Sequence record: NC_073061.1
DNA from: Escherichia phage vB_EcoS-101114BS4
Strand: one strand, 5' to 3'
DNA: 45,251 nt
In this document: positions 1,741-44,324 of the stretch, one piece after another
Position numbering within the stretch: position 1 is the first letter of the stretch
Layout: the number at the start of each line of letters is the position of its first letter
Translations under genes and position numbers: made by a program
Notes under the pieces: model-generated
Database searches by the model: none
What the model was told of the DNA's origin: nothing
Seen by the model: only the letters and a program-made list of their open reading frames with translations

Positions 1741-1780
1741 TTGACTTGCAACCAACATAGGGTCCATACTGCAACCAATC
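1741..1780 (+). promoter_or_regulatory. Sigma70-like promoter carrying two direct GCAACCAA motifs
   Basis: TTGACT (1741-1746), 17-18 bp spacer, CATACT; GCAACCAA at 1748 and 1771; 20 bp upstream of the ATG at 1799. Confidence 0.45.
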
Positions 1781-1798
1781 AACGAGAGGAGTAATACT

Positions 1799-2011
1799 AT
1801 GGAACCTGAATTTTTCTGCGCGATTATGTGCCGCACGTCTGCCACGCATTTGATTAACCCGGACTGGCGCTACGATGTTTTCCTGATTGATGGTCGATAT
1901 TACATCATGGACGAGTACGGGAACTGGGCTGAAGTGTACCGCTTCAGCGATACTATGCGTGTTTGGATGACAATTGACGGATTTAGCGCCGCGTTCACTG
2001 ATTCGGAGTAA
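1799..2011 (+). CDS. Hypothetical protein
   Basis: 70-aa ORF with GAGG RBS upstream. Confidence 0.5.
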   Translation: MEPEFFCAIMCRTSATHLINPDWRYDVFLIDGRYYIMDEYGNWAEVYRFSDTMRVWMTIDGFSAAFTDSE

Positions 2012-2159
2012 CACACTATGACACGTAATGATATTTGGGTACTGGCTATCTGGTCCACCGCAGCATTCATCGGTATGGCTATTTGCGAATTGTTATAGCC
2101 CGCCGCCATAGGGACCGTGGTATATTGTCTTCGGTCCCATAATCAGGAAGTAAATTAAT

Positions 2160-3302
2160 ATGCACCCGCAAACTAAAATTACCGACGAGCAATTGATCGC
2201 TGAATTGCAATCTGGCACTACCTCGAAAGATATTGCGAAGAAATACGGCCTTTCCCTTCGTAATGTCTATATGCGCAAAGCCCGCCTGTCGAAGAAAGGT
2301 ATTGGACACGGCAACGATGCTGTAATCCGTAAGCGCGTTGCCGATGGCTTCGGCGTTAAGCGTGTATCCGCCCTGGTGCGTGGCAATGGCGAAGAGGTCA
2401 TGTCCTGGGTCATCACCGAGCAGGACAAGGAGCGCCAACTTGAAGCAATGCGCGCCGTTGTCGAGGGTATGAACAGCGAAATCACACCGGCAGCACCAGT
2501 GAGCGCTCCGCCAGTCCCGATCCAGGCGCTTGACCTGCTTAACCTGTATACCGTGTCGGACTTCCACCTGGGAATGTTGGCATGGGGCGAGGAGACTGGC
2601 GAAGACTGGGATATGGCAATCGCCGAAGACCTTTTCTACCGCTGGTTTGTCGAAGCCTTCGCCCGCGCGCCGGACGCTGGCACTGCCGTAATCAATATCC
2701 TCGGTGATATGGCCCACTTTGACAGCCTCGACGCCGTTACGCCAGCCAGTGGTCACGTACTGGATGCCGATACCCGCTACCAGAAGTTGGTCCGCTACAT
2801 GATTCGCATGGTGCGCAACGTGGTTGAACTGGCGCTGCAAAAACACCATAAGGTCAAACTGCTAATCGTCCAGGGTAATCATGATGAGTCCGGTATGATT
2901 TGGCTGGCTGAAATGTTCAATACCCTGTACGAGAACGAGCCGCGCGTTGATGTGGACACGTCACCGGACGTATACAAAATGGTGCAGCACGGCAAGACAA
3001 CGCTGTTCTTCCACCACGGGCACAAAGCACGCTTTGACGCTATTGAGCCGGTCATGATTTCTAAATTCAGACAGGCTTTCGGGTCCAGTGAGTACAGCTA
3101 CGCGCACGTGGGCCACTTGCACCACCAGAAGATTGTCGAATCCCGTAACATGATTGTTGAACAGCACCGGACCCTTGCCGCGAAAGACGCATATGCAAGC
3201 CGTGGCGGTTGGATGTCCGGTCGCAGTGCAAACGTCATCACCTATAGCGCCAACTACGGCGAAGTAGCGCGCTTAACCATTAGCCCGGAAATGTTGAAAT
3301 GA
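2160..3302 (+). CDS. HTH domain fused to a calcineurin-like metallophosphoesterase
   Basis: N-terminal helix-turn-helix-like segment (TSKDIAKKYGLSLRNVYMRKARL); metallophosphoesterase motifs SDFH (DxH), GDMAH (GDxxH), GNHDE (GNHD), HHGH. Confidence 0.6.
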   Translation: MHPQTKITDEQLIAELQSGTTSKDIAKKYGLSLRNVYMRKARLSKKGIGHGNDAVIRKRVADGFGVKRVSALVRGNGEEVMSWVITEQDKERQLEAMRAVVEGMNSEITPAAPVSAPPVPIQALDLLNLYTVSDFHLGMLAWGEETGEDWDMAIAEDLFYRWFVEAFARAPDAGTAVINILGDMAHFDSLDAVTPASGHVLDADTRYQKLVRYMIRMVRNVVELALQKHHKVKLLIVQGNHDESGMIWLAEMFNTLYENEPRVDVDTSPDVYKMVQHGKTTLFFHHGHKARFDAIEPVMISKFRQAFGSSEYSYAHVGHLHHQKIVESRNMIVEQHRTLAAKDAYASRGGWMSGRSANVITYSANYGEVARLTISPEMLK

Positions 3303-3511
3303 TTAGACAAGTATTCATGAGCACGCAGGCCACCCGCCTGAAAGAGCTACGCAAACAGCTTGAAGGCTTGCGCCGATTCGAACGAACGGCAGCGGCAATA
3401 GGCATGACTATCAGTGAGCGGATCGAGATACTATCGCAAATACGCTACACAGAAGGCGCTATAAGCGAAGTAGAAAGCATGTTGACCAGATACTACGGTC
3501 GCGCCGTTTAA
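3299..3511 (+). CDS. Hypothetical protein
   Basis: 70-aa ORF overlapping the upstream stop (ATGA); start uncertain. Confidence 0.4.
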   Translation: MIRQVFMSTQATRLKELRKQLEGLRRFERTAAAIGMTISERIEILSQIRYTEGAISEVESMLTRYYGRAV

Positions 3512-3518
3512 TCCTCCC

Positions 3519-3544
3519 AGCCCGCCGATTTGGTGGGCTTTTTT
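3519..3544 (+). terminator. Rho-independent terminator
   Basis: agcccgcc-gattt-ggtgggct hairpin (one G-U pair) followed by tttttt. Confidence 0.65.
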
Positions 3545-3628
3545 GTGCCTGTTATAATCCCCCTTAGATGGCTGGGCCGTCTCCTATGTTGCCGATGGTC
3601 GGCGCATATGCATAAAAGGGCTTATATC

Positions 3629-4180
3629 ATGGCAGAAATCAAAGTTAAAGGCCGTCGTGCCAAACTGGACGGACGAGTAGCAGTTACCCCGCGCCGTAAA
3701 CCAGGCGAGCAAACAGAACACACCAATCTTGGACCCGAGATCGAATACGGCAAACGTCGTAAAGGCGGCAAATGTGGACGCCCGACCGACTACCGCACCG
3801 TGTATTGTGACCAGCTTCGTCGCTATTTTGCTGATGCCGTAGCCTGGCAGATCAACTACTCCGACAAGGGCGCTGCGCAAGTAATCCCTCACAACAAGAT
3901 GCCGACTCTCGGTCGCTTTGCCGCGGATATTGGCGTTGGCATCGCTTGCCTGTATCGCTGGGCGCGTGCACATGAGGAGTTTGCCGAAGCGATGGCGGAC
4001 GCTATGGAGTTGCAGAAAACTTTCCTGATGGAAGCTGGCGGCGTGACCATCGCGGCGGGCTTCGCAACGTTCCTGCTTAAAGCCAACCACGGCATTCGTG
4101 ACGATGCTCCGCTGGATGACGACGAAGATGATAACGGCGACGTCGTTGTCGAACCTACCGGCAAAGGCCAGGGTGAGTAA
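3629..4180 (+). CDS. Terminase small subunit
   Basis: 183-aa protein with acidic C-terminus (DDDEDDNGD) immediately upstream of and overlapping the large terminase; central HTH-like segment. Confidence 0.6.
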   Translation: MAEIKVKGRRAKLDGRVAVTPRRKPGEQTEHTNLGPEIEYGKRRKGGKCGRPTDYRTVYCDQLRRYFADAVAWQINYSDKGAAQVIPHNKMPTLGRFAADIGVGIACLYRWARAHEEFAEAMADAMELQKTFLMEAGGVTIAAGFATFLLKANHGIRDDAPLDDDEDDNGDVVVEPTGKGQGE

Positions 4181-5565: not shown

Positions 5566-5575
5566 GGAAACGACC

Positions 5576-8617: not shown

Positions 8618-8630
8618 TGGCCCCTTTTTT
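8607..8630. terminator. Terminator, possibly bidirectional, between convergent genes
   Basis: gggggcc-gtgat-ggcccc hairpin followed by tttttt on + and by a T-rich tract on -. Confidence 0.7.
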
Positions 8631-8635
8631 GTTAA

Positions 8636-9205: not shown

Positions 9206-9970
9206 TTAGCGCGGAATACCGCAGATTTCGTTTAACGTCTTCACATCCAGCGCTACTGCCGTTGACTTCGGCTTGTCCGGGTATGGAATGAATTGTTCAA
9301 CTTCAGGCCACGCCGCGATCAGCTTCTTGTCAGTATTGTGCATATCCAGCACGCCGGTAACGGTTAGTTTGAACGCGTCATACTTCGCACGCAATTCACG
9401 GCGGGCCTTGTCGTTGTGGTCCAGGCGCTTGCAGAAATCATGCTCTGCCGGGTAGTCTACGCGACCGCGTGGTAGATATATCGGCAGCGCTTTTCCGTCC
9501 TCATCCACTTCACATACTGACGCGAGCATAATTTCCTCGTACCCCGGTACAATATCGCTAACGTCAGGCGCGAGCGTATTCATATATTTTTCTTCCCAGT
9601 ATCCGCGGTGCTGGCGGTAGCGGTATCCGTCGCCGCTCATATGCAGGGTACGGATGTTACCGCCTGCGTTGATTTCGAAAGTGGAGCAGTAAACGCGTCC
9701 AATGCCTTTCTGACGGTCTTTGTTATAGCTATACGTCGCCTCGTCGGTGTAAACGCTGACGCCGTACATCTGCGACTGGTTATCGCGGATTTCTGCGATA
9801 TATGCGCGTAGCTCGGCGAACGTGTGAATGCCTTCTGGCATACAGTCCAGCGTAATTGCGTACGCCAGGTCGCGAGAGGCCATCATGATTGATTTGGCTT
9901 CAGTCGCGATTTCGTGGTCGCGCAGGATGTTAGCCAGAATCTGGTTTTTAATGTCTTTTGTCAGTCTCAT
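9206..9970 (-). CDS. Hypothetical protein, co-transcribed with the DnaN-like gene
   Basis: 254-aa ORF starting MRLTKDIKNQ with GAGGA RBS; no motif recognised; antisense to the flanking structural genes. Confidence 0.6.
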   Translation of the reverse strand: MRLTKDIKNQILANILRDHEIATEAKSIMMASRDLAYAITLDCMPEGIHTFAELRAYIAEIRDNQSQMYGVSVYTDEATYSYNKDRQKGIGRVYCSTFEINAGGNIRTLHMSGDGYRYRQHRGYWEEKYMNTLAPDVSDIVPGYEEIMLASVCEVDEDGKALPIYLPRGRVDYPAEHDFCKRLDHNDKARRELRAKYDAFKLTVTGVLDMHNTDKKLIAAWPEVEQFIPYPDKPKSTAVALDVKTLNEICGIPR

Positions 9971-9990: not shown

Positions 9991-10017
9991 TGTGCAACCA
10001 ATATAGTGCAACCAATA
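9991..10017. promoter_or_regulatory. Divergent control region with two direct TGCAACCAAT motifs
   Basis: TGCAACCAAT at 9993-10002 and 10008-10017, between the minus-strand start at 9970 and the scaffold start at 10120. Confidence 0.5.
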
Positions 10018-10119
10018 CCTGTATTGCAAGCGAATTTTGCGATTATTTTTATCGCTGATAATATTAAAGGCGTGAAGTCGAGCGGGTGGCCCGCTCTGCC
10101 ACGATCCCAGGGGGATAGC

Positions 10120-13030: not shown

Positions 13031-13031
13031 C

Positions 13032-15583: not shown

Positions 15584-15750
15584 AGCGGGACAAGCGGGAC
15601 GTCCCGATCTGTCCCGTTTTGCCCCGCCCCCTGTAAAACTGCATATCTACTCACTTTCATTGCATAAACTCAAAGCGGGACAAGCGGGACGTCCCGATCT
15701 GTCCCGCCCCCTAAATATGCATACCTATTCAGATTTCGTGCATAAAACAA
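15584..15750. repeat. Two tandem units of about 90 bp, each with GCGGGACAAGCGGGAC, the palindrome CGGGACGTCCCG and TGCATA motifs
   Basis: aagcgggacaagcgggacgtcccgatctgtcccg occurs at 15584 and 15674; palindromes at 15595-15606 and 15685-15696. Confidence 0.85.
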
Positions 15751-15907
15751 ACGGGACAGAAAGCGGGACAAACAAGGGGCGGGACAAAGCGGGACAGCAC
15801 CCCGTCCCCGTCAGTGCTGCCGCGGGTTTCAGCCGATCGGGACAGGCGGGACAACTCCCAGTCTTTCAGACTAGACGGGGGTCAATGGCCCCCCTCGTCT
15901 GAGACTG
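15750..15907. repeat. Copy A of a duplicated iteron-plus-hairpin element (copy B at 43319..43527)
   Basis: Four to six GCGGGACA direct repeats followed by the imperfect long hairpin cagtctttcagactagacgggggtcaatggcccccctcgtctgagactg (15859-15907). Confidence 0.85.
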
Positions 15908-15976
15908 AATAAGGTTTGTTTGAAATTCGCTGATACAATGTCAATCGGCAACTGCATAAAAAAAGGGGACTGCATA

Positions 15977-20045: not shown

Positions 20046-20786
20046 ATGTTAACGAAAAAGGTTAAGAGCGATATCGCCGCACACGTTGCGGCATGTCTGC
20101 CGGAAGAAGCGTGTGGCCTGGTTGTCATGGTGGGTCGTAAGCAAGTATTCATCCCGTGCCTGAACGTATTCGAAGACCCTACCGGCGCGCGCTCGCGTAA
20201 GGACGCGTTTACAATTAGTGATATGGCATGGATGGACGCCGAGGATATTGGTGACGTCGTGCGCGTAGTCCACTCACATCCAGGCCAGCGGGAGTTAACC
20301 CCGTCATTGGGCGACGTTAACGGATGCAACGGCAGCGGCATTGTGTGGACCATCGCCAATGAGTATGGCGACTTTATCGAGATCGACCCGGAAGACCCGC
20401 CGCTGGTAGGTCGCCGATTTGTTCTCGGAATTACGGATTGCTATGGCCTCGTCATGGACTGGCACAAAAAACAGGGCGTGATTCTGCCTGACTTCCGCGT
20501 GCCGTATAACTGGTGGGAAATGGGCGAAAGCCTGTACATGGATAACTGGTATGATGCGGGATTCAGGGAGTGCGAGGAGAATACACCGGGGGCAATGGTC
20601 ATCATGCAGATTAGCGCGCCAGTGCCTAACCATGCTGGGATCTTCCTTCCGGGCAACCAACTACTACACCATATCTACGGCAGCTTGTCGAGCGTGGTCC
20701 CCTTCCGGGCAGGATTTTTCCGCGACAATGTGGTTAAATGGGTGCGTCATAAAGACTTACCTGGGGATATTACAGAATGGCAATGA
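20046..20786 (+). CDS. Tail tip assembly protein K-like (MPN/JAMM plus NlpC/P60-like)
   Basis: VVRVVHSHPGQRELTPSLGD (JAMM-type HSHP motif) and a downstream Cys/His region; 246 aa; synteny. Confidence 0.75.
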   Translation: MLTKKVKSDIAAHVAACLPEEACGLVVMVGRKQVFIPCLNVFEDPTGARSRKDAFTISDMAWMDAEDIGDVVRVVHSHPGQRELTPSLGDVNGCNGSGIVWTIANEYGDFIEIDPEDPPLVGRRFVLGITDCYGLVMDWHKKQGVILPDFRVPYNWWEMGESLYMDNWYDAGFRECEENTPGAMVIMQISAPVPNHAGIFLPGNQLLHHIYGSLSSVVPFRAGFFRDNVVKWVRHKDLPGDITEWQ

Positions 20787-26054: not shown

Positions 26055-26135
26055 GTTATCATCTCCTATATTTGGTTGAGTTTTAGTATTGCACCGCTCA
26101 ATCAAGAATGCAACCAATTTTAAGAGGATTCAGCT
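26055..26135. promoter_or_regulatory. Divergent control region between the lipoprotein and lateral fibre genes, with a TGCAACCAAT motif
   Basis: GCAACCAA at 26110-26117 and a degenerate copy (ttggttga) at 26073; 18 bp upstream of the ATG at 26136. Confidence 0.45.
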
Positions 26136-28900: not shown

Positions 28901-28950
28901 GATGTTTTCCTTTTAGTGGGGGCCGGATTGCCCCGACGCGTTAACTATAG

Positions 28951-28972
28951 TGCAACCAACCTATTGGTTGCA
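28951..28972. promoter_or_regulatory. Perfect palindrome TGCAACCAA-CCTA-TTGGTTGCA (candidate operator)
   Basis: 9-bp inverted arms with a 4-bp spacer, overlapping the stop codon of the HAD gene and 50 bp upstream of the next start. Confidence 0.6.
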
Positions 28973-29431
28973 AGTAAATTTTGCTACGTTTATAGAATAA
29001 ATTTTCGGGACCAGATCGCCGCACGCGCGACGGATGGCTTCGATATTCTTCGGGCAGTCTTCAATGATGACCAGTTCGGACACGTCCGCATAGCACACCA
29101 TTTTGAACACCGCGCACGCCTTAAACTCTGGCGGCGGGGTGTCATCCAGCATGTGGCGCATAAACAACCGGCCCACCGGGAAGATCTCCAGTTGCTCGGC
29201 GGTGGTGTCCCAACATTCGCGCTGCCGGTTTGTCAGATACGCGATCTCGAAGCCTTGCTCTTTGTACATGCGCAACAGCGGCAGCATATCCATGTTAAGG
29301 TCTTCGCGTACGTGTGCTTTGTGCCACTTCGCCCAAAAGGTTGATTTGGTTTTTATGCCGGGCACCAGGTCAGCACGCGCATCACTTGAACCATTAATAA
29401 CGCCATCCAGATCACAAATCAGTAGTTTCAT
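28961..29431 (-). CDS. HAD-superfamily phosphatase, 5'(3')-deoxyribonucleotidase-like
   Basis: N-terminal HAD motif I LICDLDGVI; 156 aa. Confidence 0.55.
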   Translation of the reverse strand: MKLLICDLDGVINGSSDARADLVPGIKTKSTFWAKWHKAHVREDLNMDMLPLLRMYKEQGFEIAYLTNRQRECWDTTAEQLEIFPVGRLFMRHMLDDTPPPEFKACAVFKMVCYADVSELVIIEDCPKNIEAIRRACGDLVPKIYSINVAKFTCNQ

Positions 29432-29652
29432 TTTAAGCTCTCAATAAGGGTGTGTCGGGCGCTTCGCGCAGTAAAGGAGTTGCATACGAAGTGGCAACGT
29501 TTGGTTATGACAAGCCAACCGGTAAGGTCCAGGCCCATGATGGATTCGGGTCGGGATACACGCATCACGCGGTCGCGGCGCGGGTCAATGGAGAAGTCCC
29601 GTTGCATTTGGTCCACTACCGCGGGGTCGCGGTCAACGACTAAGATATTCAT
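29428..29652 (-). CDS. Hypothetical protein
   Basis: 74-aa ORF with GAGAGAG RBS, translationally coupled (ATGA overlap) to the downstream gene. Confidence 0.5.
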   Translation of the reverse strand: MNILVVDRDPAVVDQMQRDFSIDPRRDRVMRVSRPESIMGLDLTGWLVITKRCHFVCNSFTARSARHTLIESLK

Positions 29653-30118
29653 GTAGTTCTCTCTCGCTCATTATTTCAATTTGTGCGCTGCCGTTTGGCG
29701 GCGCTTCATCAAATATTATCAATTGCTGGCACTTGTTATTGCTCGGCCCAACTTCGCCGGTCACAGCATGGATGAATCGCACACGCCAGTCCAGAAGAAT
29801 TATCATATTGGCAGTCTTCCGGGCCAGCTTCGCCCACTTCGTTGACGTGTCCTGATTCAGTAGCATGACAGTACGGCGTCCGTGCGCAGCGCACTCGACC
29901 CACGGCAGCGGATCGGAGTACGGCGGATTGCACCACTTCCACCCTTTCAACTCTGACCAGTCCGCCTCAAGCGCGCTATGCTCCGCCGTGAAGTAGCGCG
30001 GTAGCAGGTGATTGGTGTCGCTTGCCGCCATATCGTAACGGAATCGGTATTTCTTACGAAGCGGTTTAAATAAAGCTGGCGGCGTACGCCAGCTATCTTT
30101 TTGCTCACTCTTCGTCAT
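29633..30118 (-). CDS. DNA N6-adenine methyltransferase, phage Dam-like
   Basis: WCNPPYS (motif IV N-PP-Y) and upstream WRTPPALFKPL, about 160 aa, consistent with the short phage Dam family; start chosen at the ATG at 30118. Confidence 0.6.
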   Translation of the reverse strand: MTKSEQKDSWRTPPALFKPLRKKYRFRYDMAASDTNHLLPRYFTAEHSALEADWSELKGWKWCNPPYSDPLPWVECAAHGRRTVMLLNQDTSTKWAKLARKTANMIILLDWRVRFIHAVTGEVGPSNNKCQQLIIFDEAPPNGSAQIEIMSERELHEYLSR

Positions 30119-30588: not shown

Positions 30589-30613
30589 AAAAAGGGCGTC
30601 CAACCGGACACCC
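30589..30613 (-). terminator. Internal intrinsic terminator in the leftward operon
   Basis: On the minus strand: gggugucc-gguu-ggacgccc hairpin (one G-U pair) followed by uuuuu. Confidence 0.55.
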
Positions 30614-30623
30614 TTAAGATAAT

Positions 30624-30648
30624 GCAACCAATCTAATTACGCAACCAA
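30624..30648. promoter_or_regulatory. Pair of direct GCAACCAAT motifs
   Basis: GCAACCAA at 30624 and 30641 (17-bp spacing) between the stop of gene 30650..30973 and the internal terminator. Confidence 0.5.
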
Positions 30649-33525: not shown

Positions 33526-33565
33526 TTCTAAAATCCTCGATAGGGCTAACCGGCACACTATACCG

Positions 33566-33844
33566 CTACGCGACCAATTCAGCAACCAATAAATCGCAGT
33601 CGGCTATGTTGTCAATAACGCGAACGTCAGCACCGCGGCGGGCCATTCGCTCATGTTCTAGCACCTGGTGCGGCTTCGGTTTTCCGCCGGGGCGCTTCAC
33701 TTCGACGAATACTATGATGCCGTTGATGATAATAATCAGGTCGGGCGCACCTGCGCGCCCCTCCCATGCCAGTTTACGGCAGAATCCGCCGACCTCTTTC
33801 ACCCGTCGCATCAGGTGACTTTGTATCTTGCCTTCGGGTGTCAT
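33566..33844 (-). CDS. VRR-NUC domain nuclease
   Basis: APDLIIIINGIIVFVEVKRPGGK carries the PD-(D/E)xK signature in the VRR-NUC arrangement; 92 aa. Confidence 0.7.
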   Translation of the reverse strand: MTPEGKIQSHLMRRVKEVGGFCRKLAWEGRAGAPDLIIIINGIIVFVEVKRPGGKPKPHQVLEHERMARRGADVRVIDNIADCDLLVAELVA

Positions 33845-37341: not shown

Positions 37342-37395
37342 TTTCATTTCCTCATTTCGCATGTATCGGGGTTATTGTGAGCCACCCCGTTCGGC

Positions 37396-37419
37396 TTGGT
37401 TGCTAATTTACTTGGTTGC
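37396..37419. promoter_or_regulatory. Pair of direct TTGGTTGC motifs (reverse orientation of GCAACCAA)
   Basis: cttggttgc at 37395-37403 and 37411-37419 in the gap between genes 37430..37672 and 36553..37341. Confidence 0.5.
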
Positions 37420-37429
37420 GCCTAAGCGG

Positions 37430-37672
37430 TCAAGCACTTTTATTAAAAAGATTTCGTGTCACGTAGTTGGTGGCGTTCTCGATCCAGCTTAACGGCGGGC
37501 GGTCGATGTGCTTCTCAACCCAGTCGACGGCGACGTCGCTATATCCGTCGTCCAGCCAGCGGGATGGATGGCGAATCATCCAGGCCAACATTAACACGCC
37601 TTGCACGCAATGCAGGATAAATCCCAGCGCGCCGAGCATAATCATCAATACGAATGCGAATACCTTATTCAT
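37430..37672 (-). CDS. Small membrane protein
   Basis: 80 aa with N-terminal hydrophobic helices (VFAFVLMIMLGALGFILHCVQGVLMLAWMI). Confidence 0.5.
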   Translation of the reverse strand: MNKVFAFVLMIMLGALGFILHCVQGVLMLAWMIRHPSRWLDDGYSDVAVDWVEKHIDRPPLSWIENATNYVTRNLFNKSA

Positions 37673-39280: not shown

Positions 39281-39531
39281 TATTTCGTCTCCCAACGGTC
39301 AATTACTTTTTCCTCCGACGATACGGCAAAGCGAACATATTCCAGATTGGAGTCCGCCCAAATATAGAAGTCGGGGTTAGTAAATGTGGTGCGCTTAATT
39401 TGCGCGGGGTTATCGCGGCGTTTATCTATTACGGCAACGCGTGATTTAAAGTTGCCGGTACGTTCGAATAGCCAATAATAAGGGCGCTGGTCGCGTGAAT
39501 CCACCGCCTCGATTAGCGTGAAGCGTGCCAT
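39280..39531 (-). CDS. Hypothetical protein
   Basis: 83-aa ORF (MARFTLIEAVDSRDQRPYYW...) with GAGGA RBS. Confidence 0.5.
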   Translation of the reverse strand: MARFTLIEAVDSRDQRPYYWLFERTGNFKSRVAVIDKRRDNPAQIKRTTFTNPDFYIWADSNLEYVRFAVSSEEKVIDRWETK

Positions 39532-39544
39532 TGTCTCGTCCTCT

Positions 39545-39571
39545 AAAAATAGGCCCGCAGATTAGCGGGCC
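39545..39571 (-). terminator. Internal intrinsic terminator in the leftward operon
   Basis: On the minus strand: ggcccgc-uaaucu-gcgggcc hairpin followed by uauuuuu. Confidence 0.6.
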
Positions 39572-39579
39572 GGATAATA

Positions 39580-39705
39580 TTAATCTTCACCGCCGAGTTG
39601 TCTATAAACCTCGTCCGGGTCGTCGCCTCTTTCTTCGCAGAAGGCGGTGAATGCCGCCCAATTTTCTGCTATGAAATCGAGCGTGATTCTCATTTCATAG
39701 TCCAT
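39580..39705 (-). CDS. Small acidic hypothetical protein
   Basis: 40-aa ORF (MDYEMRITLDFIAENWAAF...) below the ORF-track size cutoff, ending at the internal terminator. Confidence 0.3.
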   Translation of the reverse strand: MDYEMRITLDFIAENWAAFTAFCEERGDDPDEVYRQLGGED

Positions 39706-39709
39706 TATA

Positions 39710-40228
39710 TTAATCTTCTAATTCGAAATAAGTTTCGACGATTGCTTTTAATTCCTGGTGGAACTCTTCCACGTCGTCATCTTCCAGCTTGGCAACGGAT
39801 TTAATTTCGAATTCTTCCAGCAGGTCGTCAAATTCGTCGTTTGCGTCGTCGTCATCACCGCCAGCAATAATAGCGGCATACTGCTTGATTTCGTCGCGCA
39901 TCTCTTTCAGCGGATCGGCATCTTTCTTGCCTTTACCTTTCGCCGGTGCTTTCTTAGATTTCGCCGGGGCTTCTTCTTCGTCGTCCGCGTCGTCTTCTTC
40001 TACGGCTTCTTTCTTAGCCTTGCCCTTTGCTGGCGCTTTTTTGGTCTTAGCCGGTGCTTCGTCTTCAGCGTCGTCATCTTCGACTACTTCTTCTTTTGCC
40101 TTGCCCTTAGCCGGGGCTTTCTTCGCTTCCTGTTTACCAACGGCAGCGCCAGCAGTTTCATAATGCTTAGCGATGGTTTCCAGTGCTACTACGCCGCGTG
40201 TGATCAGGTTTACGATTTGCTCAAACAT
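39710..40228 (-). CDS. Lys/Ala/Glu-rich repeat protein (histone H1-like composition), first gene of the leftward operon
   Basis: ATG 40228 (MFEQIVNL) with GGAG RBS; repeats EAPAKTKKAPAKGKAKKE; the upstream in-frame ORF extension is treated as 5' leader. Confidence 0.55.
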   Translation of the reverse strand: MFEQIVNLITRGVVALETIAKHYETAGAAVGKQEAKKAPAKGKAKEEVVEDDDAEDEAPAKTKKAPAKGKAKKEAVEEDDADDEEEAPAKSKKAPAKGKGKKDADPLKEMRDEIKQYAAIIAGGDDDDANDEFDDLLEEFEIKSVAKLEDDDVEEFHQELKAIVETYFELED

Positions 40229-40424
40229 TGTATATCTCCGATTGGTTAAGTTTAGGTGTCGGCAGTCAACTTCGTCGGTGGCCTTAACATAGTGCCAGGT
40301 TACGCGTTCTCCCTTTCGGGTAGTGGACCTGGTTATATAATCACGGTTGGGAATCCTGACACTTCGATCCGGCCCCTGCGTTGCCCCTCTCCAGTTTGCG
40401 TCCTGCATCCTGTCGACGGAGTGA

Positions 40425-40454
40425 ATAATAGATTGGTTGCAGGTGGGGTGTCAA
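40425..40454 (-). promoter_or_regulatory. Candidate sigma70 promoter for the leftward operon
   Basis: On the minus strand: TTGACA, 18 bp spacer, TATTAT; the spacer contains TGCAACCAAT; leader of about 190 nt to the ATG at 40228. Confidence 0.5.
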
Positions 40455-40465
40455 CAACTAATTTC

Positions 40466-40524
40466 AAAAAAAAAAAAGCGCCGAGGCAAAATGCGACGGC
40501 GCTAACCAATAAGAGACAATGAGA
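40466..40524 (-). ncRNA. Candidate small RNA unit (promoter, about 60 nt, intrinsic terminator)
   Basis: Minus-strand TTGAAA-N17-AATAAT (40532-40560) followed by hairpin gcgccg...cggcgc and a U12 tract (40466-40502); the transcript would contain ugucucuuauugguua. Confidence 0.3.
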
Positions 40525-40573
40525 CGTGATTATTATTACACGCGTGCGCGCCCGTTTCAATATACAAAAGGAG

Positions 40574-40602
40574 TTGACACCCTGCAATTTTAGGTGTAGT
40601 TT
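40574..40602 (+). promoter_or_regulatory. Candidate sigma70 promoter for the rightward operon
   Basis: TTGACA (40574-40579), 17 bp spacer, TAGTTT (weak -10), 30 bp upstream of the ATG at 40634. Confidence 0.4.
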
Positions 40603-40633
40603 CGTTGGTCATTAACCAATAGGAGACAGAACA

Positions 40634-40963
40634 ATGCATATCAACGACGCTATCGAAATGTTAACTAAGACCGTAAGCGGTGAGACAAGCCGGTCCTGGG
40701 CTTATACCGATGCCGTTGGTGCGGCGTTATTTGAAATCGAACGCCTGCGCAGTGTCGAAAAAGAATTGCGCGCCAAGCTGGAATTACTCAACGGTACGGC
40801 AGCAAGCAAGCTGCAAAAACACAATGAAGAAATGGAAGAATACAAAAAGCAGGTTATCCGTTTACGCGACGAGGGCAAGTCCTGGGCGATGATTGCCGAG
40901 TTGACCGGAATTAATCAGAGCACCGTGCGCTCCTGGGTACGCAATAATAAAACTTCTAAGTAA
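40634..40963 (+). CDS. Putative transcriptional regulator with C-terminal HTH
   Basis: 109 aa; C-terminal SWAMIAELTGINQSTVRSWVRN is HTH-like; first gene of the rightward unit. Confidence 0.5.
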   Translation: MHINDAIEMLTKTVSGETSRSWAYTDAVGAALFEIERLRSVEKELRAKLELLNGTAASKLQKHNEEMEEYKKQVIRLRDEGKSWAMIAELTGINQSTVRSWVRNNKTSK

Positions 40964-40973
40964 GGCAACGGCA

Positions 40974-43238
40974 ATGAGCTTAATTAAATTCGCAGTAACA
41001 AGACCCGCTAAAAAAGGCGAAAAAGCCAGGGCGGAAAACTTCGAGATGACCACTGATGAGTTTTTCGAATTTATCAATGATGCGAAAGAAATCTCCTCGG
41101 TGCACATCAACAAGACTGAAGATAAAGCCGAGTATGCGCGCCGCAAGCGTAAGGCCGATGGCATCGTGGCCTATACCAATGATGGGTTACGCCGCAAGAC
41201 CAGTGCGGTCGACCGCTCGATCCTGTTCTTCGATATTGACCGCACCGACACCCGCACATTACGCCGCTGCCGTAAAGCGTTCACCGACGCTGGTCTGGAG
41301 CATGTATTCCACACCACGACCGGCGACCGTCACCCACTGAAAGGCGGCACACGTTGCGCCCGTTTCCTGGTGCTCACTGACAAGCCTGTACCGGCTGAAG
41401 ACCTGGGCCGCGTCCAGTATGCGCTATTAGACCAACTGGGCCTGTCAGATGTGGACTTCGACGATTGTACGAAAGACACCAACCGCCTTATGTACCTGCC
41501 TCACCAGCAGTCTGTCATAAAGTGCCACTACGGAAAGCGCGCCCGTGTCCGTCGTCTGCTTCGCCTGGCTGACAAGCTGGGAGTGGAGAAAGAGGAAGTG
41601 CGCCGCGAACTGACCCAGGGCGCCGATGGCGTGGCGGACGGCATTCTGGATTGGTGCTTCCAGGCTGGCTTTGAACCACTGTCATCCGGTCGCGGTTATG
41701 AAGTGCCTTGCCCGAACGAGCACCTGCATAGCGGCGGCGGGTCGACGGCTATCATGGTTAAGGATGGCGAGATCCGTTTCAAGTGTATGCACACCGGCAA
41801 CGAATGCTGTTCCGAACTGAATAAACACCAGCACCTGGCGCTGCGTCTGATCGGCATCCCGGACCACTTGAACGTTGAACCGCACAACATGTCACGCAAG
41901 CAAATCGCCGCCATCCTTCCGGGACTGGACGACGAGGAAGTGGAATCATGCTATGAACATATTGTTGATGCGGTCGGCGACGGCGACGAGTACGGCGAAT
42001 GCACCGACGCTGACCTGGACAACGAACCTGTTGCACTATTCAGTAAGCACGACCCGATCATCGAAGGCCTGGTCAACTTCAAATCGACCTGGTATCTTGC
42101 CGGTGAGTCGAACATTGGTAAGTCGTTCTACGTGCTGGGCCAGATGGCGTCCGTATCTGCCGGTATTCCGTTTGGTGGCGCGAAGGTCGTCCAGTCGCAT
42201 TGCTTCTATTTCGACGCGGAAGGTGGCGAAGCCTCCAACCAGCGTAAGGAAGCACTGCAGATTAAATACGAGCACGACCTCGACAAGCTGCACATTATCG
42301 ACCTGCAATCACGCGGCTGGGATATTACCAGCAAGTCAGGCTTGCGCGAGGTTATCAGCTTTATCAACCGCACCGCTAACGGGGAGCCGGTTGGCCTGGT
42401 GGCCTTCGACTCACTCAACCAGACTGTAGCGCTGCGGTCCGCTGATGCCAAACCGTTCGACGAGAACAACGCCAGCGATATGGGCGAAGTGGTCAAGGCG
42501 CTGAAGGCCATTGCGGAAAATACAGGCGGCAGTGCGGGCGTCATCCATCACCCGGCTAAGGGTGCAAACGGCAGCAGATCCCCACGCGGGTCCGGCGCGC
42601 TTCATGGTGCTGTCGATTCTGCGTTCTTCCTGGAACAGCCGGACGATAATCAGCCAGGCCAACTCAACCTGTATCACGAAAAATCCCGTAACGGCATCAA
42701 GCAAGCGCCGCGTGGCTTCGTCCTGCTCAAATGCAAGGTGAAGGTGGATCTCCGTAAGTCCGAGGCGTTCGAAGCCCACCAGTCCACCAGCACCGGTCCG
42801 GACTTCGGCGATGTGGTTGCCGGTTGGGACGTCAAGCCAATTGCATCCACGCCACGCGACGAGACTCTCTACCTCGTACCGGTCGCCCTGGCACCGTTCG
42901 CTGTCGAACAGGCTAAGGCCGCAGGCAAGGCCGCAGTTAAGGAAGAGAACACCGCCGGACCGCGCAACGAAAAAGAGAAGGTGCTTTATGCGGCACTGGA
43001 AAAACTGATGGAAGATAACCCGGACCATACTGGATTCAGTAAATCGGCAATTGTCCGCCAGGCTGGACTCGCGAAAGGCGGAACATCGACGAAGGCAATC
43101 GACGATATGGTGGAGCGCGGCGTGCTCGGTTTTTATACAGATCCACACACCGGGGCCATCTATGGGTCGTCGAATCTGGTCATCAAATCGGATATCCCAA
43201 TCACGCTTTCGGCGACCGATGATGACCTGAAAGATTAA
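40974..43238 (+). CDS. Primase-helicase (primase/polymerase N-domain, zinc-binding region, P-loop helicase)
   Basis: 754 aa; ILFFDIDRTD, cysteine-rich CPNEHLH...FKCMHTGNECC, Walker A GESNIGKS, Walker B-like LVAFDSL. Confidence 0.7.
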   Translation: MSLIKFAVTRPAKKGEKARAENFEMTTDEFFEFINDAKEISSVHINKTEDKAEYARRKRKADGIVAYTNDGLRRKTSAVDRSILFFDIDRTDTRTLRRCRKAFTDAGLEHVFHTTTGDRHPLKGGTRCARFLVLTDKPVPAEDLGRVQYALLDQLGLSDVDFDDCTKDTNRLMYLPHQQSVIKCHYGKRARVRRLLRLADKLGVEKEEVRRELTQGADGVADGILDWCFQAGFEPLSSGRGYEVPCPNEHLHSGGGSTAIMVKDGEIRFKCMHTGNECCSELNKHQHLALRLIGIPDHLNVEPHNMSRKQIAAILPGLDDEEVESCYEHIVDAVGDGDEYGECTDADLDNEPVALFSKHDPIIEGLVNFKSTWYLAGESNIGKSFYVLGQMASVSAGIPFGGAKVVQSHCFYFDAEGGEASNQRKEALQIKYEHDLDKLHIIDLQSRGWDITSKSGLREVISFINRTANGEPVGLVAFDSLNQTVALRSADAKPFDENNASDMGEVVKALKAIAENTGGSAGVIHHPAKGANGSRSPRGSGALHGAVDSAFFLEQPDDNQPGQLNLYHEKSRNGIKQAPRGFVLLKCKVKVDLRKSEAFEAHQSTSTGPDFGDVVAGWDVKPIASTPRDETLYLVPVALAPFAVEQAKAAGKAAVKEENTAGPRNEKEKVLYAALEKLMEDNPDHTGFSKSAIVRQAGLAKGGTSTKAIDDMVERGVLGFYTDPHTGAIYGSSNLVIKSDIPITLSATDDDLKD

Positions 43239-43318
43239 TTTTTGCGCGCATTGGTTGCCAAATTGAGTGTTTTTAGCTGGTCGCATTGGTTGCCGTGTAG
43301 TGTAAATATAGTGAATAG

Positions 43319-43527
43319 TTATGCAGTTTTATTGCATAAAGTAAGCGGGACAAAAAGCGGGACAGACAGGGGGCGGGACAAAGCGGGACAGCACCCCTGT
43401 CCCGCCCCGGATGGCGCGGCTTGCAGGGGGGCGGGACAGGCGGGACAAACCCCAGTCTTTCAGACTAGACGGGGGTCAGTTGGCCCCCCTCGTCTGAGAC
43501 TGCATAAAATCCGGGATTGCATAATGT
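43319..43527. repeat. Copy B of the duplicated iteron-plus-hairpin element, flanked by inverted TGCATAA motifs
   Basis: Six GCGGGACA repeats (43345-43450), hairpin cagtctttcagactagacgggggtcagttggcccccctcgtctgagactg (43453-43502), ttatgcag at the left and ctgcataa at the right edge. Confidence 0.85.
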
Positions 43528-43718
43528 ACGGCAGCATGATGTGAATTGCTGTCGTCGACGAACTAGGCAACCAATGCGAGTTGCAAAATGGAGAGTGAAA
43601 AATGCAGTTTGCAGTTACAGCGGATAGGGATCGGCTTTTTCATACGCATGATTAATATTGGTTGCAATCAGCCTGGCACCTTGCTAGATTGGTTGCTCAC
43701 CAACATGAGGACTGAACA

Positions 43719-44045
43719 ATGAGAGCATTAATCTGGAATTACTCACTGGCAATGGCGGCGGCACAAGAAGCGGCGGAGTTCGCCGGTGAAGGGGCGGAAG
43801 CGGTCGAAAGACTAGCGGCAGCGTGGTCCGTTGTTCGCTTCGCGCAGCAGGCCATCGCCTGGATGCTTGAGCGCCGCTTCGACACGATGGCGGAGATCCA
43901 GCCGTTGGCGAACGCTATCCAGGACTACGCGCTTGCATTTGCCCGTGAGCGCCTGGCGTATCGCTTCGGTATTGGCGATAAGGCAGTGACAAACGTCGCC
44001 AGGATTAAAGCCCAGCGCGAACTATTCGCCCAGCTTGCGAAATAA
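43719..44045 (+). CDS. Hypothetical protein
   Basis: 108-aa Ala-rich ORF with GAGGA RBS. Confidence 0.5.
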   Translation: MRALIWNYSLAMAAAQEAAEFAGEGAEAVERLAAAWSVVRFAQQAIAWMLERRFDTMAEIQPLANAIQDYALAFARERLAYRFGIGDKAVTNVARIKAQRELFAQLAK

Positions 44046-44054
44046 GGGGCTAAA

Positions 44055-44324
44055 ATGAGCCGTAGGCGAGCTAAACAGCTTTCTTGGCACATTCCCCTGC
44101 ATTGCATACGAATATGGGCTAAGAACGCGATTGAGGGCGATTCCGTGTACTGGTGCTATCGCGATGACGTGAAGCCACTAACGCAGACTCGCTACTTGCA
44201 CCAGTTCGCAGCACAACATGATTTCTATGTGCGGACTTCCTTGCAACCAATGGGAATACGTATTACATTACGCCGGAAGCCCGCCGTTGAGCGGGTAGGC
44301 AAACACTGGAGACTGAGCAAATGA
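44055..44324 (+). CDS. Hypothetical protein
   Basis: 89-aa basic ORF; contains a GCAACCAA motif at 44243. Confidence 0.45.
   Translation: MSRRRAKQLSWHIPLHCIRIWAKNAIEGDSVYWCYRDDVKPLTQTRYLHQFAAQHDFYVRTSLQPMGIRITLRRKPAVERVGKHWRLSK

What the first reader, a model, noticed from the sequence alone, without database searches (positions are those of the whole stretch)
1746..44250. GCAACCAA(T) motif strongly over-represented and concentrated at intergenic sites
By eye I find 19 copies of the 8-mer GCAACCAA on either strand: 1748, 1771, 9994, 10008, 26110, 28952, 28964 (rc), 30624, 30641, 33582, 37396 (rc), 37412 (rc), 40433 (rc), 43251 (rc), 43286 (rc), 43567, 43658 (rc), 43689 (rc), 44243. A random 8-mer is expected about 1.4 times in 45 kb on both strands. 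Most copies sit in gaps between genes, often as direct pairs 15-35 bp apart, once as a perfect palindrome, and once inside the spacer of a sigma70-like promoter. Orientation relative to transcription is not fixed, which favours a protein-binding site over a promoter hexamer. The HTH protein at 40634..40963 is a candidate binder.
Basis: seen in the sequence. Interest (0 to 1): 0.7.

Follow-up and report, generated by a model that had tools for sequence, protein, structure and literature searches.

The report
Conserved promoter-overlapping DNA site, binder unknown

Summary
GCAACCAA occurs 20 times against about 2 expected. Sixteen copies lie in the 8.5% of the window that is non-coding (p = 3e-14), and two more overlap the last codons of genes. 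The window is a Dhillonvirus. All 20 copies are intact at orthologous positions in the relatives examined.

Copies overlap the -35, spacer or -10/+1 of about nine sigma70-type promoters that drive non-structural genes, in either orientation. The orthologous SSB promoter in related phages without the motif is a clean TTGACA-N17-TATAGT. The motif is therefore an added operator-like element, not a promoter hexamer.

The proposed binder, the 109-aa HTH protein, is not supported. The same motif is over-represented and intergenic in Eiauvirus (23 copies) and in the Guernseyvirinae phage VLCpiS11a (13); Otaku also has 12 against 1.7 expected, though mostly in annotated coding DNA. None of these phages encodes that protein. 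Two sister lineages carry a one-base variant (CAGCCAAC), confined to the 3' end of the helicase-primase gene and the gap after it.

My best reading is a clade-wide binding site for an unidentified trans-acting factor, probably repressing early promoters. It is undescribed in the literature I could search and moderately interesting.

The parts
1741..1778 (+). Promoter P1 (TTGACT-N18-CATACT, rightward, just after terminator 1710-1733). Motif copies at 1748-1755 (spacer, -29..-22) and 1771-1778 (abutting the -10, -6..+2).
   Evidence: Copies. Promoter called by the scan tool at 1741..1770. Footprint in 6 genomes.
9994..10029 (-). Promoter P2 (leftward TTGCAA-N18-TATATT) driving the Nmad5 and polIII-beta-like 'moron' genes. 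Copies at 9994-10001 and 10008-10015 (both on the + strand) sit at -8..-1 and -22..-15 in reverse orientation.
   Evidence: promoter called at 10029..10000. The conserved block begins exactly at the motif, whatever the leftward gene is.
20653..20660 (+). Copy inside the tail gene 20046..20786. Probably a chance occurrence held by coding constraint.
26110..26117 (+). Single copy in the divergent gap between the lipoprotein/Cor-like gene (leftward) and the tail fibre gene. Best read as the -39..-32 element (ttggTTGCAT as -35) of a leftward promoter. LM40P1 has a two-copy version, TTGGTTGC-N9-TTGGTTGC-AC-TATATT.
28944..28973 (-). Promoter P3 (leftward TTGCAA-N18-TATAGT). The inverted pair 28952-28959 (+) and 28964-28971 (-) has 8-bp arms and a 4-bp spacer, at -22..-15 and -34..-27.
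   Evidence: promoter called at 28973..28944.
30612..30648 (-). Promoter P4 (leftward; TTGCAT -35 supplied by the motif, -10 TATCTT, which is TATATT in relatives). Copies at 30624-30631 and 30641-30648 (+ strand) sit at -22..-15 and -39..-32. A terminator hairpin starts at about +1.
   Evidence: Hand-read promoter, not called by the scan tool.
33540..33589 (-). Promoter P5 (leftward; TTGCTG -35 supplied by the motif, -10 TATAGT), upstream of the Lar-like zinc-ribbon gene. Copy at 33582-33589 (+) overlaps the last codons of the VRR-NUC gene. A degenerate TTGGTCGC lies 12 bp downstream.
   Evidence: An equivalent site lies upstream of the Lar-like gene in VLCpiS11a.
37396..37433 (-). Promoter P6 (leftward TTGACC-N17-TAAATT), upstream of the gp2.5-like SSB gene. 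Copies at 37412-37419 (-21..-14) and 37396-37403 (-5..+3), both in forward orientation.
   Evidence: promoter called at 37433..37405. Orthologous promoters without the motif in 4 phages.
40425..40454 (-). Promoter P7 (leftward TTGACA-N17/18-CTATTA/TATTAT, 11 of 12 consensus matches), the first promoter of the replication-gene operon. Copy at 40433-40440 lies in the spacer.
40241..40620 (.). Three core-only variants, (c/t)TAACCAAT, at 40241 (-), 40504 (+) and 40614 (+), clustered in the divergent control region. The third lies in the 5'UTR of the HTH gene.
   Evidence: three of the four AACCAAT copies outside full motifs fall in this 400-bp region. Conserved in relatives.
43251..43293 (-). Two copies (43251-43258, 43286-43293) directly after the helicase-primase stop codon, flanking the CGGGACA repeat cluster on its left. 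No convincing promoter here.
   Evidence: A cluster at or after the 3' end of this gene is present in all four motif-positive lineages.
43567..43574 (+). Single copy to the right of the repeat/hairpin region, about 45 bp before the position where relatives' physical genome ends map (43617/43618).
43658..43696 (+). Promoter P9 (rightward; TTGCAA -35 supplied by the motif, N17, TAGATT). Copies at 43658-43665 and 43689-43696 (- strand) sit at -39..-32 and -8..-1. This is the first promoter inside the terminal repeat of relatives.
   Evidence: Hand-read promoter. Its 5'UTR is paralogous to that of P2.
44243..44250 (+). Copy inside gene 44055..44324. Probably chance.
40634..40963 (+). It is Dhillonvirus-specific, with a hypervariable N-terminus and an invariant C-terminal tri-helical HTH.
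40974..43238 (+). Helicase-primase (RSF1010 RepA-like helicase core, Cys/His cluster at residues 246-287, C-terminal winged-helix-like domain). A candidate binder because motif clusters sit at or after its 3' end in every motif-bearing lineage.
43345..43450 (.). Cluster of GCGGGACA repeats plus a large hairpin (region B). A second cluster without GCAACCAA lies at 15586-15860 (region A). This is a separate, Dhillonvirus-specific repeat system.
   Evidence: Annotated as repeat regions A and B in the SO-1 record.
29633..30118 (-). Dam-family N6-adenine methyltransferase (NPPY motif). It is the only detectable protein whose presence or absence matches that of the GCAACCAA motif across nine lineages.

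Best explanation
GCAACCAA(Y) is a DNA-level binding site for a sequence-specific trans-acting factor used by a clade of enterobacterial siphophages: Dhillonvirus, Eiauvirus and some Guernseyvirinae.

In this Dhillonvirus, 13 copies are laid over the core elements (-35, spacer, -10/+1) of about nine otherwise ordinary sigma70 promoters that drive the non-structural genes: replication, recombination, modification, 'moron' genes and the terminal-repeat genes. Five more flank the repeat region just past the helicase-primase gene.

The most likely mechanism is that the bound factor occludes RNA polymerase and so turns down all early promoters together as it accumulates. This would be a genome-wide operator system in a virulent phage.

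Shown here: the site is real, exact, intergenic, conserved, promoter-overlapping, orientation-independent and an add-on to pre-existing promoters.

Inferred: that a protein binds it and that the effect is repression.

The binder is unresolved. The comparative evidence argues against the 109-aa HTH protein. It points to something shared across the clade: a conserved replication-module protein such as the helicase-primase or the Lar-like zinc-ribbon protein, or, less likely, a host protein.
For: - Over-representation: 20 copies vs 2.0 expected. It is among the top over-represented 8-mers in every relative.
- Position: 16 of 20 copies lie in the 8.5% of the window that is non-coding, p = 2.7e-14.
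- Conservation: all copies are intact at orthologous positions in 5-8 relatives although flanks are only 85-95% identical. Motif columns are 98.4% identical against 88.6% for other non-coding columns.
- Promoters: the scan tool independently calls sigma70-like promoters at five motif sites. -10-like hexamers are enriched at fixed offsets on both sides of the motif across three genera: 9 of 42 abutting the 5' side, 8 of 42 overlapping the 3' end on the other strand, against a background of about 1.2 per offset.
- Add-on nature: the SSB promoter is TTGACA-N17-TATAGT/TATATT in four motif-negative phages. In Dhillonvirus and VLCpiS11a it carries the motif in the spacer, and in eiAU over the -35.
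- Gene class: every motif-bearing promoter in the window drives non-structural genes.
- Clade-wide use: the same motif is over-represented and intergenic in eiAU-183 (17 of 23 non-coding, p = 8e-13) and VLCpiS11a (10 of 13, p = 2e-9). A one-base variant, CAGCCAAC, sits at the same locus in Shemara and TS33.
- DNA-level selection: the copy inside the helicase-primase gene is read in different frames in different phages.
Against: - No binder has been identified. Neither small HTH at the control region tracks the motif.
- The C-terminal winged-helix-like domain of the helicase-primase is not conserved in its putative recognition helix among the four GCAACCAA lineages.
- Pair spacings (12-35 bp) show no helical periodicity, so cooperative dimer binding is not evident.
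- Three sites (43251, 43286, 43567) have no convincing promoter.
- In VLCpiS11a one copy lies at about +15 in a 5'UTR rather than over the core promoter.
- In Otaku only 3 of 12 copies are non-coding by the deposited annotation.
- Repression rather than activation is inferred from geometry only.
- No transcription start sites or expression data exist for any of these phages in the literature I could search.
Confidence: 0.55

Rival explanations
1. One reading: the 109-aa HTH protein (40634..40963), the first gene of the rightward early operon, is the repressor that binds GCAACCAAT in Dhillonvirus. The other genera would then use a different, unrelated protein for the same site.
For: - It is the only recognisable DNA-binding regulator among the small early proteins.
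- It sits at the divergent control region, next to a motif-bearing promoter and three weaker TAACCAAT copies.
- Its C-terminal HTH, including the recognition helix TGINxSTVRSW, is invariant across all alleles while the N-terminus is hypervariable.
- The predicted structure is a long helix plus a tri-helical HTH of the resolvase/IstA/DeoR/LuxR type, which could bind an asymmetric site.
Against: - The family is confined to Dhillonvirus and is absent from all outgroup genomes by profile search.
- The identical motif is used in Eiauvirus and two Guernseyvirinae lineages.
- An unrelated protein evolving the same 8-9 bp specificity is unlikely.
- The HTH protein's distribution matches that of the CGGGACA repeats, which are also Dhillonvirus-specific, at least as well.
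Confidence: 0.15
2. The site serves replication rather than transcription. It would be a recognition or loading sequence for the helicase-primase, comparable to DnaA boxes, P4 alpha octamers or the RSF1010 ssi primase sites. It would be anchored at an origin by the helicase-primase gene, with extra copies at promoters where RNA polymerase opens the duplex.
For: - Clusters sit at or after the 3' end of the helicase-primase gene in all four motif-bearing lineages. The variant motif is found mostly there in Shemara (3 of 6 copies) and TS33 (5 of 7).
- In the window the flanking copies lie on opposite strands around the repeat cluster: 43251(-) and 43286(-) against 43567(+).
- The helicase core is RSF1010 RepA-like, and a conserved Cys/His cluster suggests a primase zinc-binding domain.
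- About 45% of copies cover -8..+3, the region melted in open complexes.
- Motif orientation follows genome position rather than transcription sense.
Against: - Known primases recognise 3-5 nt, not an exact 8-9-mer (established knowledge).
- Nothing in a priming role explains strict avoidance of coding DNA.
- The strand arrangement around the gap is convergent in eiAU but divergent in Dhillonvirus and VLCpiS11a.
- The helicase-primase of Shemara and TS33 is as similar to the window's (44%) as those of the motif-positive outgroups (45-48%).
- Region B may relate to packaging or the terminal repeat rather than being an origin, because relatives' genome ends map 170 bp away.
Confidence: 0.15
3. 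A host protein conserved in Enterobacterales binds the site, and these phages recruit it to regulate their promoters.
For: The motif is identical in phages of Escherichia, Edwardsiella, Klebsiella and Serratia that share no candidate regulator. No phage-encoded transcription factor tracks it.
Against: - Bas75 and JSSK01, which infect E. coli as Dhillonviruses do, lack the motif.
- The one-base variant in Shemara and TS33 is easier to explain by a co-evolving phage protein.
- I know of no E. coli factor with this consensus. The nearest from memory, the TTGGT/ACCAA half-sites of PdhR and UxuR, are palindromic with fixed spacing, which is not seen here.
Confidence: 0.08
4. The motif marks a site-specific DNA modification or strand interruption made by phage enzymes, which in turn affects promoter use or DNA processing.
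For: - The Dam-family N6-adenine methyltransferase is the only protein with a phyletic pattern matching the motif: 4 of 4 motif-positive and 0 of 5 motif-negative lineages. It has an intact NPPY motif.
- Nmad5, a domain associated with DNA modification, is 3+/0- and is driven by a motif-bearing promoter.
- All adenines of the motif lie on one strand.
- Polynucleotide kinase, a ligase-like protein, HNH and VRR-NUC genes lie in the same operon.
Against: - The co-occurrence rests on only about five independent lineages and may reflect shared ancestry.
- A 161-aa methyltransferase is unlikely to read 8-9 bp.
- Family members of known specificity target GATC (from memory, not tested here).
- Modification would not by itself explain the promoter-overlapping geometry.
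Confidence: 0.05

Closest known systems
Dispersed asymmetric repressor sites in temperate phages: mycobacteriophage L5 gp71 'stoperators' and phage P1 C1 operators (established knowledge, not tested here)
   Same: A short asymmetric site present in about 20 copies, scattered over the whole genome, almost only in short intergenic gaps, with some copies overlapping promoters. One factor would control many operons.
   Different: - L5 stoperators have a single orientation relative to transcription, whereas here only 7 of 18 copies are in the sense of their operon.
- Those systems belong to temperate phages and use an identified immunity repressor.
- This phage has no recognisable lysogeny genes, and no cognate protein has been identified.
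DnaA boxes, and SV40 large-T antigen sites
   Same: An asymmetric 8-9 bp site that works in either orientation, clustered next to the replication gene or presumed origin and also placed over promoters. A replication protein could then double as a transcriptional repressor.
   Different: The sequence is unrelated. Binding by the helicase-primase is untested, and its winged-helix-like domain is not conserved among lineages that share the motif. The origin itself is not mapped.
Classical Cro/CI-type operators at a divergent control region
   Same: Sites overlap the -35, spacer and -10 of sigma70 promoters, usually two per promoter. One pair forms an inverted repeat (28952/28964).
   Different: Most sites are single asymmetric half-sites at irregular spacing and are spread over the whole genome rather than confined to one control region. 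The XRE/Cro-type protein that relatives encode at the control region does not track the motif and is absent from this window.
T4 MotA box (middle-promoter element)
   Same: A phage-specific 9-bp word associated with many sigma70-dependent promoters of non-structural genes. In 4-5 promoters the motif supplies the TTGC of the -35 region.
   Different: MotA boxes have a fixed position (about -30) and orientation and replace the -35. Here the position varies from -39 to +3, both orientations occur, and several promoters keep a consensus TTGACA.
RSF1010 oriV ssi sites
   Same: The helicase is RepA-like. In the window, motif copies lie on opposite strands on either side of an iteron-like cluster.
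   Different: The ssi sites are roughly 40-nt hairpin-forming elements present twice per replicon. They are not an 8-mer dispersed over promoters.

Membership tests
Sigma70 promoter hexamer (-35 or -10) itself | Fixed position and orientation relative to the partner hexamer and the transcription start | tested here: not met
   Registers range from -39..-32 to -5..+3, and both orientations occur. Orthologous promoters function as TTGACA-N17-TATAGT without the motif.
Repressor operator overlapping a promoter | The site overlaps core promoter elements so that the bound protein excludes RNA polymerase | tested here: met
   Five tool-called promoters and four hand-read promoters contain the motif in the -35, spacer, or -10/+1.
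Repressor operator overlapping a promoter | A cognate sequence-specific DNA-binding protein is encoded and co-distributed with the site | tested here: inconclusive
   The HTH109 protein is Dhillonvirus-only, while the motif spans four lineages. The XRE protein does not track the motif. Only the Dam-family methyltransferase matches the phyletic pattern.
Repressor operator overlapping a promoter | The site is selectively conserved relative to neighbouring non-coding DNA | tested here: met
   Column identity is 98.4% against 88.6%. All 20 copies are retained in relatives.
L5-type stoperators | Many asymmetric copies in short intergenic gaps across the genome | tested here: met
   Sixteen of 20 copies are non-coding, spread from 1.7 to 43.7 kb.
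L5-type stoperators | One orientation relative to the direction of transcription | tested here: not met
   Seven of 18 copies are in the sense of their operon.
L5-type stoperators | The binder is the immunity repressor of a temperate phage | tested here: not met
   Neither the relatives' annotations nor the domain scans show an integrase or CI-like repressor.
Initiator binding sites (iterons or DnaA-box-like) | A cluster of copies at the replication origin, next to or within the initiator gene | tested here: inconclusive
   Clusters lie at or after the 3' end of the helicase-primase gene in all motif-bearing lineages. The origin is unmapped, and relatives' genome ends map 170 bp from region B.
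Initiator binding sites (iterons or DnaA-box-like) | The DNA-binding domain of the initiator co-varies with the site | tested here: not met
   The putative recognition helix of the C-terminal winged-helix-like domain differs among the four GCAACCAA lineages. Overall identity does not separate A-type from G-type lineages.
T4 MotA-box type activator site | Fixed position at about -30, one orientation, replaces the -35 hexamer | tested here: not met
   Positions and orientations vary. P1, P6 and P7 retain TTGACT, TTGACC and TTGACA.
RNA-level element (5'UTR motif or sRNA target) | Constant orientation in the transcript | tested here: not met
   Both orientations occur relative to transcription. 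There are no Rfam matches.

The most novel reading that the evidence does not exclude
The site is read by the phage replication machinery: the helicase-primase, through its conserved zinc-binding or primase part, or a small partner such as the Lar-like zinc-ribbon protein. Its placement over the -10/+1 of early promoters would couple replication to transcription. Either the replication protein shuts off early promoters as it accumulates, or RNA-polymerase open complexes at these promoters expose the site for helicase or primase loading. Specificity would have switched by one base (A to G) in the Shemara/TS33 lineage.
Probability: 0.2. Interest if true: 0.75.

Novelty: new variant of a known kind. 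Interest (0 to 1): 0.55.

Why it matters
Dhillonviruses are common and widely used coliphages (the BASEL collection, defence-system studies, therapy candidates), yet nothing is known about how they time gene expression.

A single exact word marking essentially every non-structural promoter gives a direct experimental handle. Pulling down its binder would identify the master regulator.

The site is shared across genera that differ in their obvious regulators, and a natural one-base variant exists. This offers a ready-made specificity-swap experiment. It also hints that control may come from the replication module rather than from a classical repressor.

Practically, the motif is an annotation aid for early promoters and module boundaries in these phages, and a design constraint for engineering them.

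Tried and rejected
1. Literature search for the sequence string found only unrelated primers. Searches on Dhillonvirus, HK578 and SO-1 promoters, repeats and transcriptomes found nothing relevant. Ksap1 (PMC11564622) is a different Dhillonvirus protein.
2. Covariation within Dhillonvirus was not possible. The HTH alleles at 78% and 35% identity all keep the same recognition helix and the same motif.
3. A scan of IMG/VR for paired motifs gave non-Dhillonvirus hits that are coding tandem repeats (GCA-ACC-AAT-GCA = A-T-N-A) and so unrelated.
4. RNA explanations: there are no Rfam families or tRNAs, and orientation is not constant in transcripts.
5. The XRE regulator as binder in the outgroups: its recognition helices do not group the motif-positive phages.
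6. The helicase-primase C-terminal domain as binder: the sequence is not conserved where it should be. The fold search returned only the RepA/RecA core.
7. The Lar-like zinc-ribbon protein: differences between A-type and G-type are confounded with phylogeny.
8. Sigma54, sigmaE, IHF, PdhR/UxuR and EcoKI consensus sequences, compared from memory: spacing or sequence does not fit.
9. The 52-bp match to T1-like phages next to copy 40433: that region in phage slyngel holds no motif.

Full report
**Identity of the window.** The window is a complete or nearly complete Dhillonvirus (HK578-like E. coli siphophage). It is 97% identical to vB_EcoS_WF5505 and 96% to phage 'rolling' and has 54% G+C. The layout follows the annotation of relatives. 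A rightward block runs from lysis and terminase genes to the tail genes. A leftward operon of replication, recombination and modification genes spans 40.4 to 27.7 kb. A divergent control region lies at 40.2-40.6 kb. A rightward operon starts with a 109-aa HTH protein and a 754-aa helicase-primase.

**Checking the observation.** GCAACCAA occurs 20 times on both strands, against 2.0 +/- 1.4 in shuffles. Sixteen copies are wholly non-coding although only 8.5% of the window is non-coding (p = 2.7e-14). Two more overlap the last codons of genes. Two (20653, 44243) are internal to genes, which is the chance expectation. One-mismatch variants are scattered in coding DNA and look like background, so the word is sharply defined. 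It extends to about tGCAACCAAT. An unbiased k-mer screen puts it among the most over-represented 8-mers in the window and in every relative.

**Conservation.** All 20 copies are intact at the orthologous positions in five to eight relatives, even where flanking sequence is only 85-93% identical. Across nine non-coding alignments with 6-19 unique sequences each, motif columns are 98.4% identical to the window against 88.6% for the other non-coding columns (Mann-Whitney p about 2e-7, though the columns are not independent). In several promoters the bases between the motif and the hexamers vary freely while the motif does not. That is a footprint.

**Relation to promoters.** The scan tool calls sigma70-like promoters at 1741-1770 (+), 10029-10000 (-), 28973-28944 (-), 37433-37405 (-) and 40454-40425 (-). 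All of these contain the motif and lie in intergenic gaps. The total number of promoter-like calls is no higher than in shuffles, so it is the coincidence with the motif that matters. By hand I read four more promoters (P4 at 30.6 kb, P5 at 33.6 kb, the leftward one at 26.1 kb, and P9 at 43.7 kb). In these the TTGC of the reversed motif supplies the -35.

Taking the -10 hexamer as -12..-7, copies sit at -39..-32, -34..-27, -29..-22, -22..-14 and -8..+3, in either orientation and usually two per promoter. Only 7 of 18 copies are in the sense of their operon. Pooling 42 non-coding copies from three genera, -10-like hexamers are enriched at three specific offsets: abutting the 5' side in 9 of 42, overlapping the AAT end on the other strand in 8 of 42, and two bases beyond the reversed motif in 5 of 42. 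The background is about 1.2 per offset. Every motif-bearing promoter in the window drives non-structural genes. The long structural operons have none, apart from the leftward 'moron' promoters embedded in them.

**The motif is an add-on.** The promoter upstream of the gp2.5-like SSB gene is recognisably orthologous across the wider group, down to a 5'UTR hairpin. In four phages without the motif (Shemara, TS33, Ent1, Bas75) it is a clean TTGACA-N17-TATAGT/TATATT. In this window and in VLCpiS11a the motif sits in the spacer, and in eiAU-183 it covers the -35. This is what an operator laid on a constitutive promoter looks like. It is the main reason I favour repression over activation.

**The proposed binder.** The protein at 40634..40963 has a C-terminal HTH that passes the Pfam cut-offs for HTH_23, HTH_28 and Sigma70_r4_2. 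It is the only recognisable regulator among the small early proteins. Its last 60 residues are essentially invariant, including T-G-I-N-x-S-T-V-R-S-W, while its first 45 residues are hypervariable. The AlphaFold model (pLDDT 86) is a short helix, a 55-residue helix and a tri-helical HTH. Fold matches to the DNA-binding domains of DeoR, IstA, serine recombinases and LuxR/GerE are weak, with E about 1.

**The decisive comparison.** I looked at phages that share the replication module at lower identity. Edwardsiella phage eiAU-183 (Eiauvirus; helicase-primase 46% identical) has 23 copies against 2.0 expected, 17 of them non-coding (p = 8e-13). Klebsiella phage VLCpiS11a (Guernseyvirinae; 48%) has 13 against 1.4, with 10 non-coding (p = 2e-9). 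Serratia phage Otaku has 12 against 1.7. Their version is GCAACCAAC.

Sites recur at equivalent places: the control region, upstream of the SSB gene, upstream of the Lar-like gene, near the scaffold gene, and after the helicase-primase gene. None of these phages encodes the 109-aa HTH, by tblastn or by profile search, and the family is confined to Dhillonvirus-size genomes. At the syntenic position they encode an XRE-type protein. That protein also occurs in motif-negative relatives, and its recognition helices do not group the motif-positive phages. The window has no XRE homologue.

**What does track the motif?** Jerseyvirus Ent1 and the E. coli phages Bas75 and JSSK01 (helicase-primase 31-34% identical) have chance-level counts. 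This argues against a general host-imposed feature, since Bas75 and JSSK01 share the Dhillonvirus host.

Shemara (Salmonella) and TS33 (Hafnia) have one copy each, although their helicase-primase (44%) and Lar-like protein (51%) are as close to the window's as those of the motif-positive outgroups. Forward and reciprocal phyletic screens find exactly one protein present in all four motif-positive lineages and in none of the five motif-negative ones: the 161-aa Dam-family N6-adenine methyltransferase, which has an intact NPPY motif. Nmad5 is 3+/0-. With roughly five independent lineages this may be shared ancestry. I record it as unexplained.

**A one-base variant.** At the 3' end of the helicase-primase gene and in the gap after it, Shemara and TS33 carry CAGCCAAC(AT), that is GCAgCCAAC. 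Three of Shemara's six copies and five of TS33's seven lie there. All four GCAACCAA lineages also have a cluster at that locus:
- Window: 43251, 43286, then 43567, 43658 and 43689.
- eiAU: nine copies between 26870 and 27635.
- VLCpiS11a: 5323, 4957 and 4793.
- Otaku: four copies in the last 190 nt of the gene.

The copy inside the gene is read as A-T-N in eiAU and as Q-P-T in Shemara and TS33. Conservation is therefore at the DNA level. The word thus seems to be ancestrally tied to this locus and secondarily spread over promoters in some lineages.

**Is the helicase-primase the binder?** It has an RSF1010 RepA-like helicase core, an invariant Cys/His cluster at residues 246-287, and a C-terminal helical domain that reads like a winged helix. 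However, the putative recognition helix of that domain differs among the four GCAACCAA lineages. It fits better with the lineage-specific repeats that fill each phage's post-helicase gap: CGGGACA in Dhillonvirus, ACTCGCAA in VLCpiS11a, TTCCGCACA in Otaku. The conserved N-terminal part remains a possibility. The Lar-like zinc-ribbon protein with a basic tail is restricted to the lineages with either motif variant, but its A-type/G-type differences are confounded with phylogeny.

**Separate repeat system.** GCGGGACA repeats (16-20 copies) fill region B (43345-43450) and region A (15586-15860). They end in the same large hairpin and are Dhillonvirus-specific. Region A has no GCAACCAA, so the two systems are independent. 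The HTH109 protein shares the CGGGACA distribution.

I am cautious about calling region B an origin. WF5505 carries an exact 2026-bp terminal repeat whose first base maps to window 43618, and Zar3M starts and ends there too. The region could therefore serve packaging or terminal-repeat formation.

**Conclusion.** The reading as a protein-binding site rather than a promoter hexamer is supported. The specific binder proposed is not.

My best account is an operator-like site for an unidentified factor shared across the clade, probably repressing the early promoters in concert (confidence 0.55).

I found no description of the motif or of this regulatory layout in the searchable literature.

Noticed in passing
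window 15586-15860 and 43345-43450 (with hairpins at about 15865-15912 and 43455-43510): Two clusters of GCGGGACA/CGGGACA repeats (20 copies in all), each ending in the same large inverted repeat. They are Dhillonvirus-specific (18-20 copies against 2-4 in other genera) and independent of GCAACCAA. The arrangement is reminiscent of the two-site ori/crr layout of phage P4. The Dhillonvirus-specific HTH protein has the same phyletic distribution.
   Followed up: partly
whole window (52 copies, e.g. 1060, 2308, 5058, 43528): ACGGCARC and overlapping 8-mers are even more over-represented than the finding's motif (ACGGCAGC 31 vs 3.1 expected). They are mostly coding and biased to the sense strand (36 sense, 13 antisense). 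They are also over-represented in Eiauvirus, Guernseyvirinae, Jerseyvirus and Kagunavirus genomes. The cause is unknown; it could be a dicodon bias or a polar Chi-like signal.
   Followed up: partly
window 29633-30118 (-): The small Dam-family N6-adenine methyltransferase (NPPY motif) is the only protein whose presence or absence across nine lineages matches that of the GCAACCAA motif (4 of 4 against 0 of 5). Nmad5 (9206-9970) is 3+/0-.
   Followed up: partly
window 40458-40560 (- strand): A small leftward transcription unit inside the control region. A promoter-like site (TTGAAA-N17-AATAAT with TG at 40560-40532, or TTGCAG-N17-TATATT further upstream) is followed by a strong hairpin and a run of 12 T. 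The unit is highly conserved, and single-base indels in relatives rule out coding. There is no Rfam match. It contains AUUGGUUAGC, one base off the reversed motif.
   Followed up: partly
window 40341-40392: A 52-bp stretch in the 5' leader of the first leftward gene is 92-94% identical to unannotated DNA in T1-like Hanrivervirus phages (slyngel, ityhuna, swan01). There too it lies in a gap between leftward genes. Its function is unknown.
   Followed up: partly
window 40634-40780 (N-terminal third of the HTH protein): The first ~45 residues of the 109-aa HTH protein are hypervariable, with many unrelated alleles and one allele carrying a 40-residue extension. The last 60 residues are invariant. 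This looks like diversifying selection or domain shuffling on the N-terminus.
   Followed up: partly
window 43617/43618: The physical genome end of relatives maps here. WF5505 has an exact 2026-bp direct terminal repeat starting at this point, and Zar3M starts and ends here. Promoter P9 and the small genes from 43719 onward therefore lie in the terminal repeat and would enter the cell first.
   Followed up: partly
window 30590-30648 and 39552-39604 (- strand): A promoter -10 is followed immediately by an intrinsic-terminator hairpin starting at about +1, twice in the leftward operon. One hairpin might both stop upstream transcripts and cap the new transcript's 5' end.
   Followed up: no
whole window: Motif orientation follows genome position, not transcription. 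Below 35 kb it is 9 plus and 1 minus; above 35 kb it is 1 plus and 7 minus (Fisher p = 0.003 per copy, 0.048 per cluster; the boundary was chosen post hoc). Orientations at equivalent sites match between this phage and VLCpiS11a.
   Followed up: partly
L150 38134-38470; L151 10816-11194: Shemara and TS33 carry a one-base variant, CAGCCAAC(AT), concentrated at the 3' end of the helicase-primase gene and the gap after it (3 of 6 and 5 of 7 copies). The in-gene copy is read in a different frame from the eiAU copy, so the conservation is at the DNA level.
   Followed up: yes
window 28960-28963 versus L007 (Gluttony): The 4-bp spacer of the inverted motif pair reads TAGG in most genomes but CCTA in Gluttony (transcribed strand). 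This is what a flip of the whole palindromic unit would produce.
   Followed up: no
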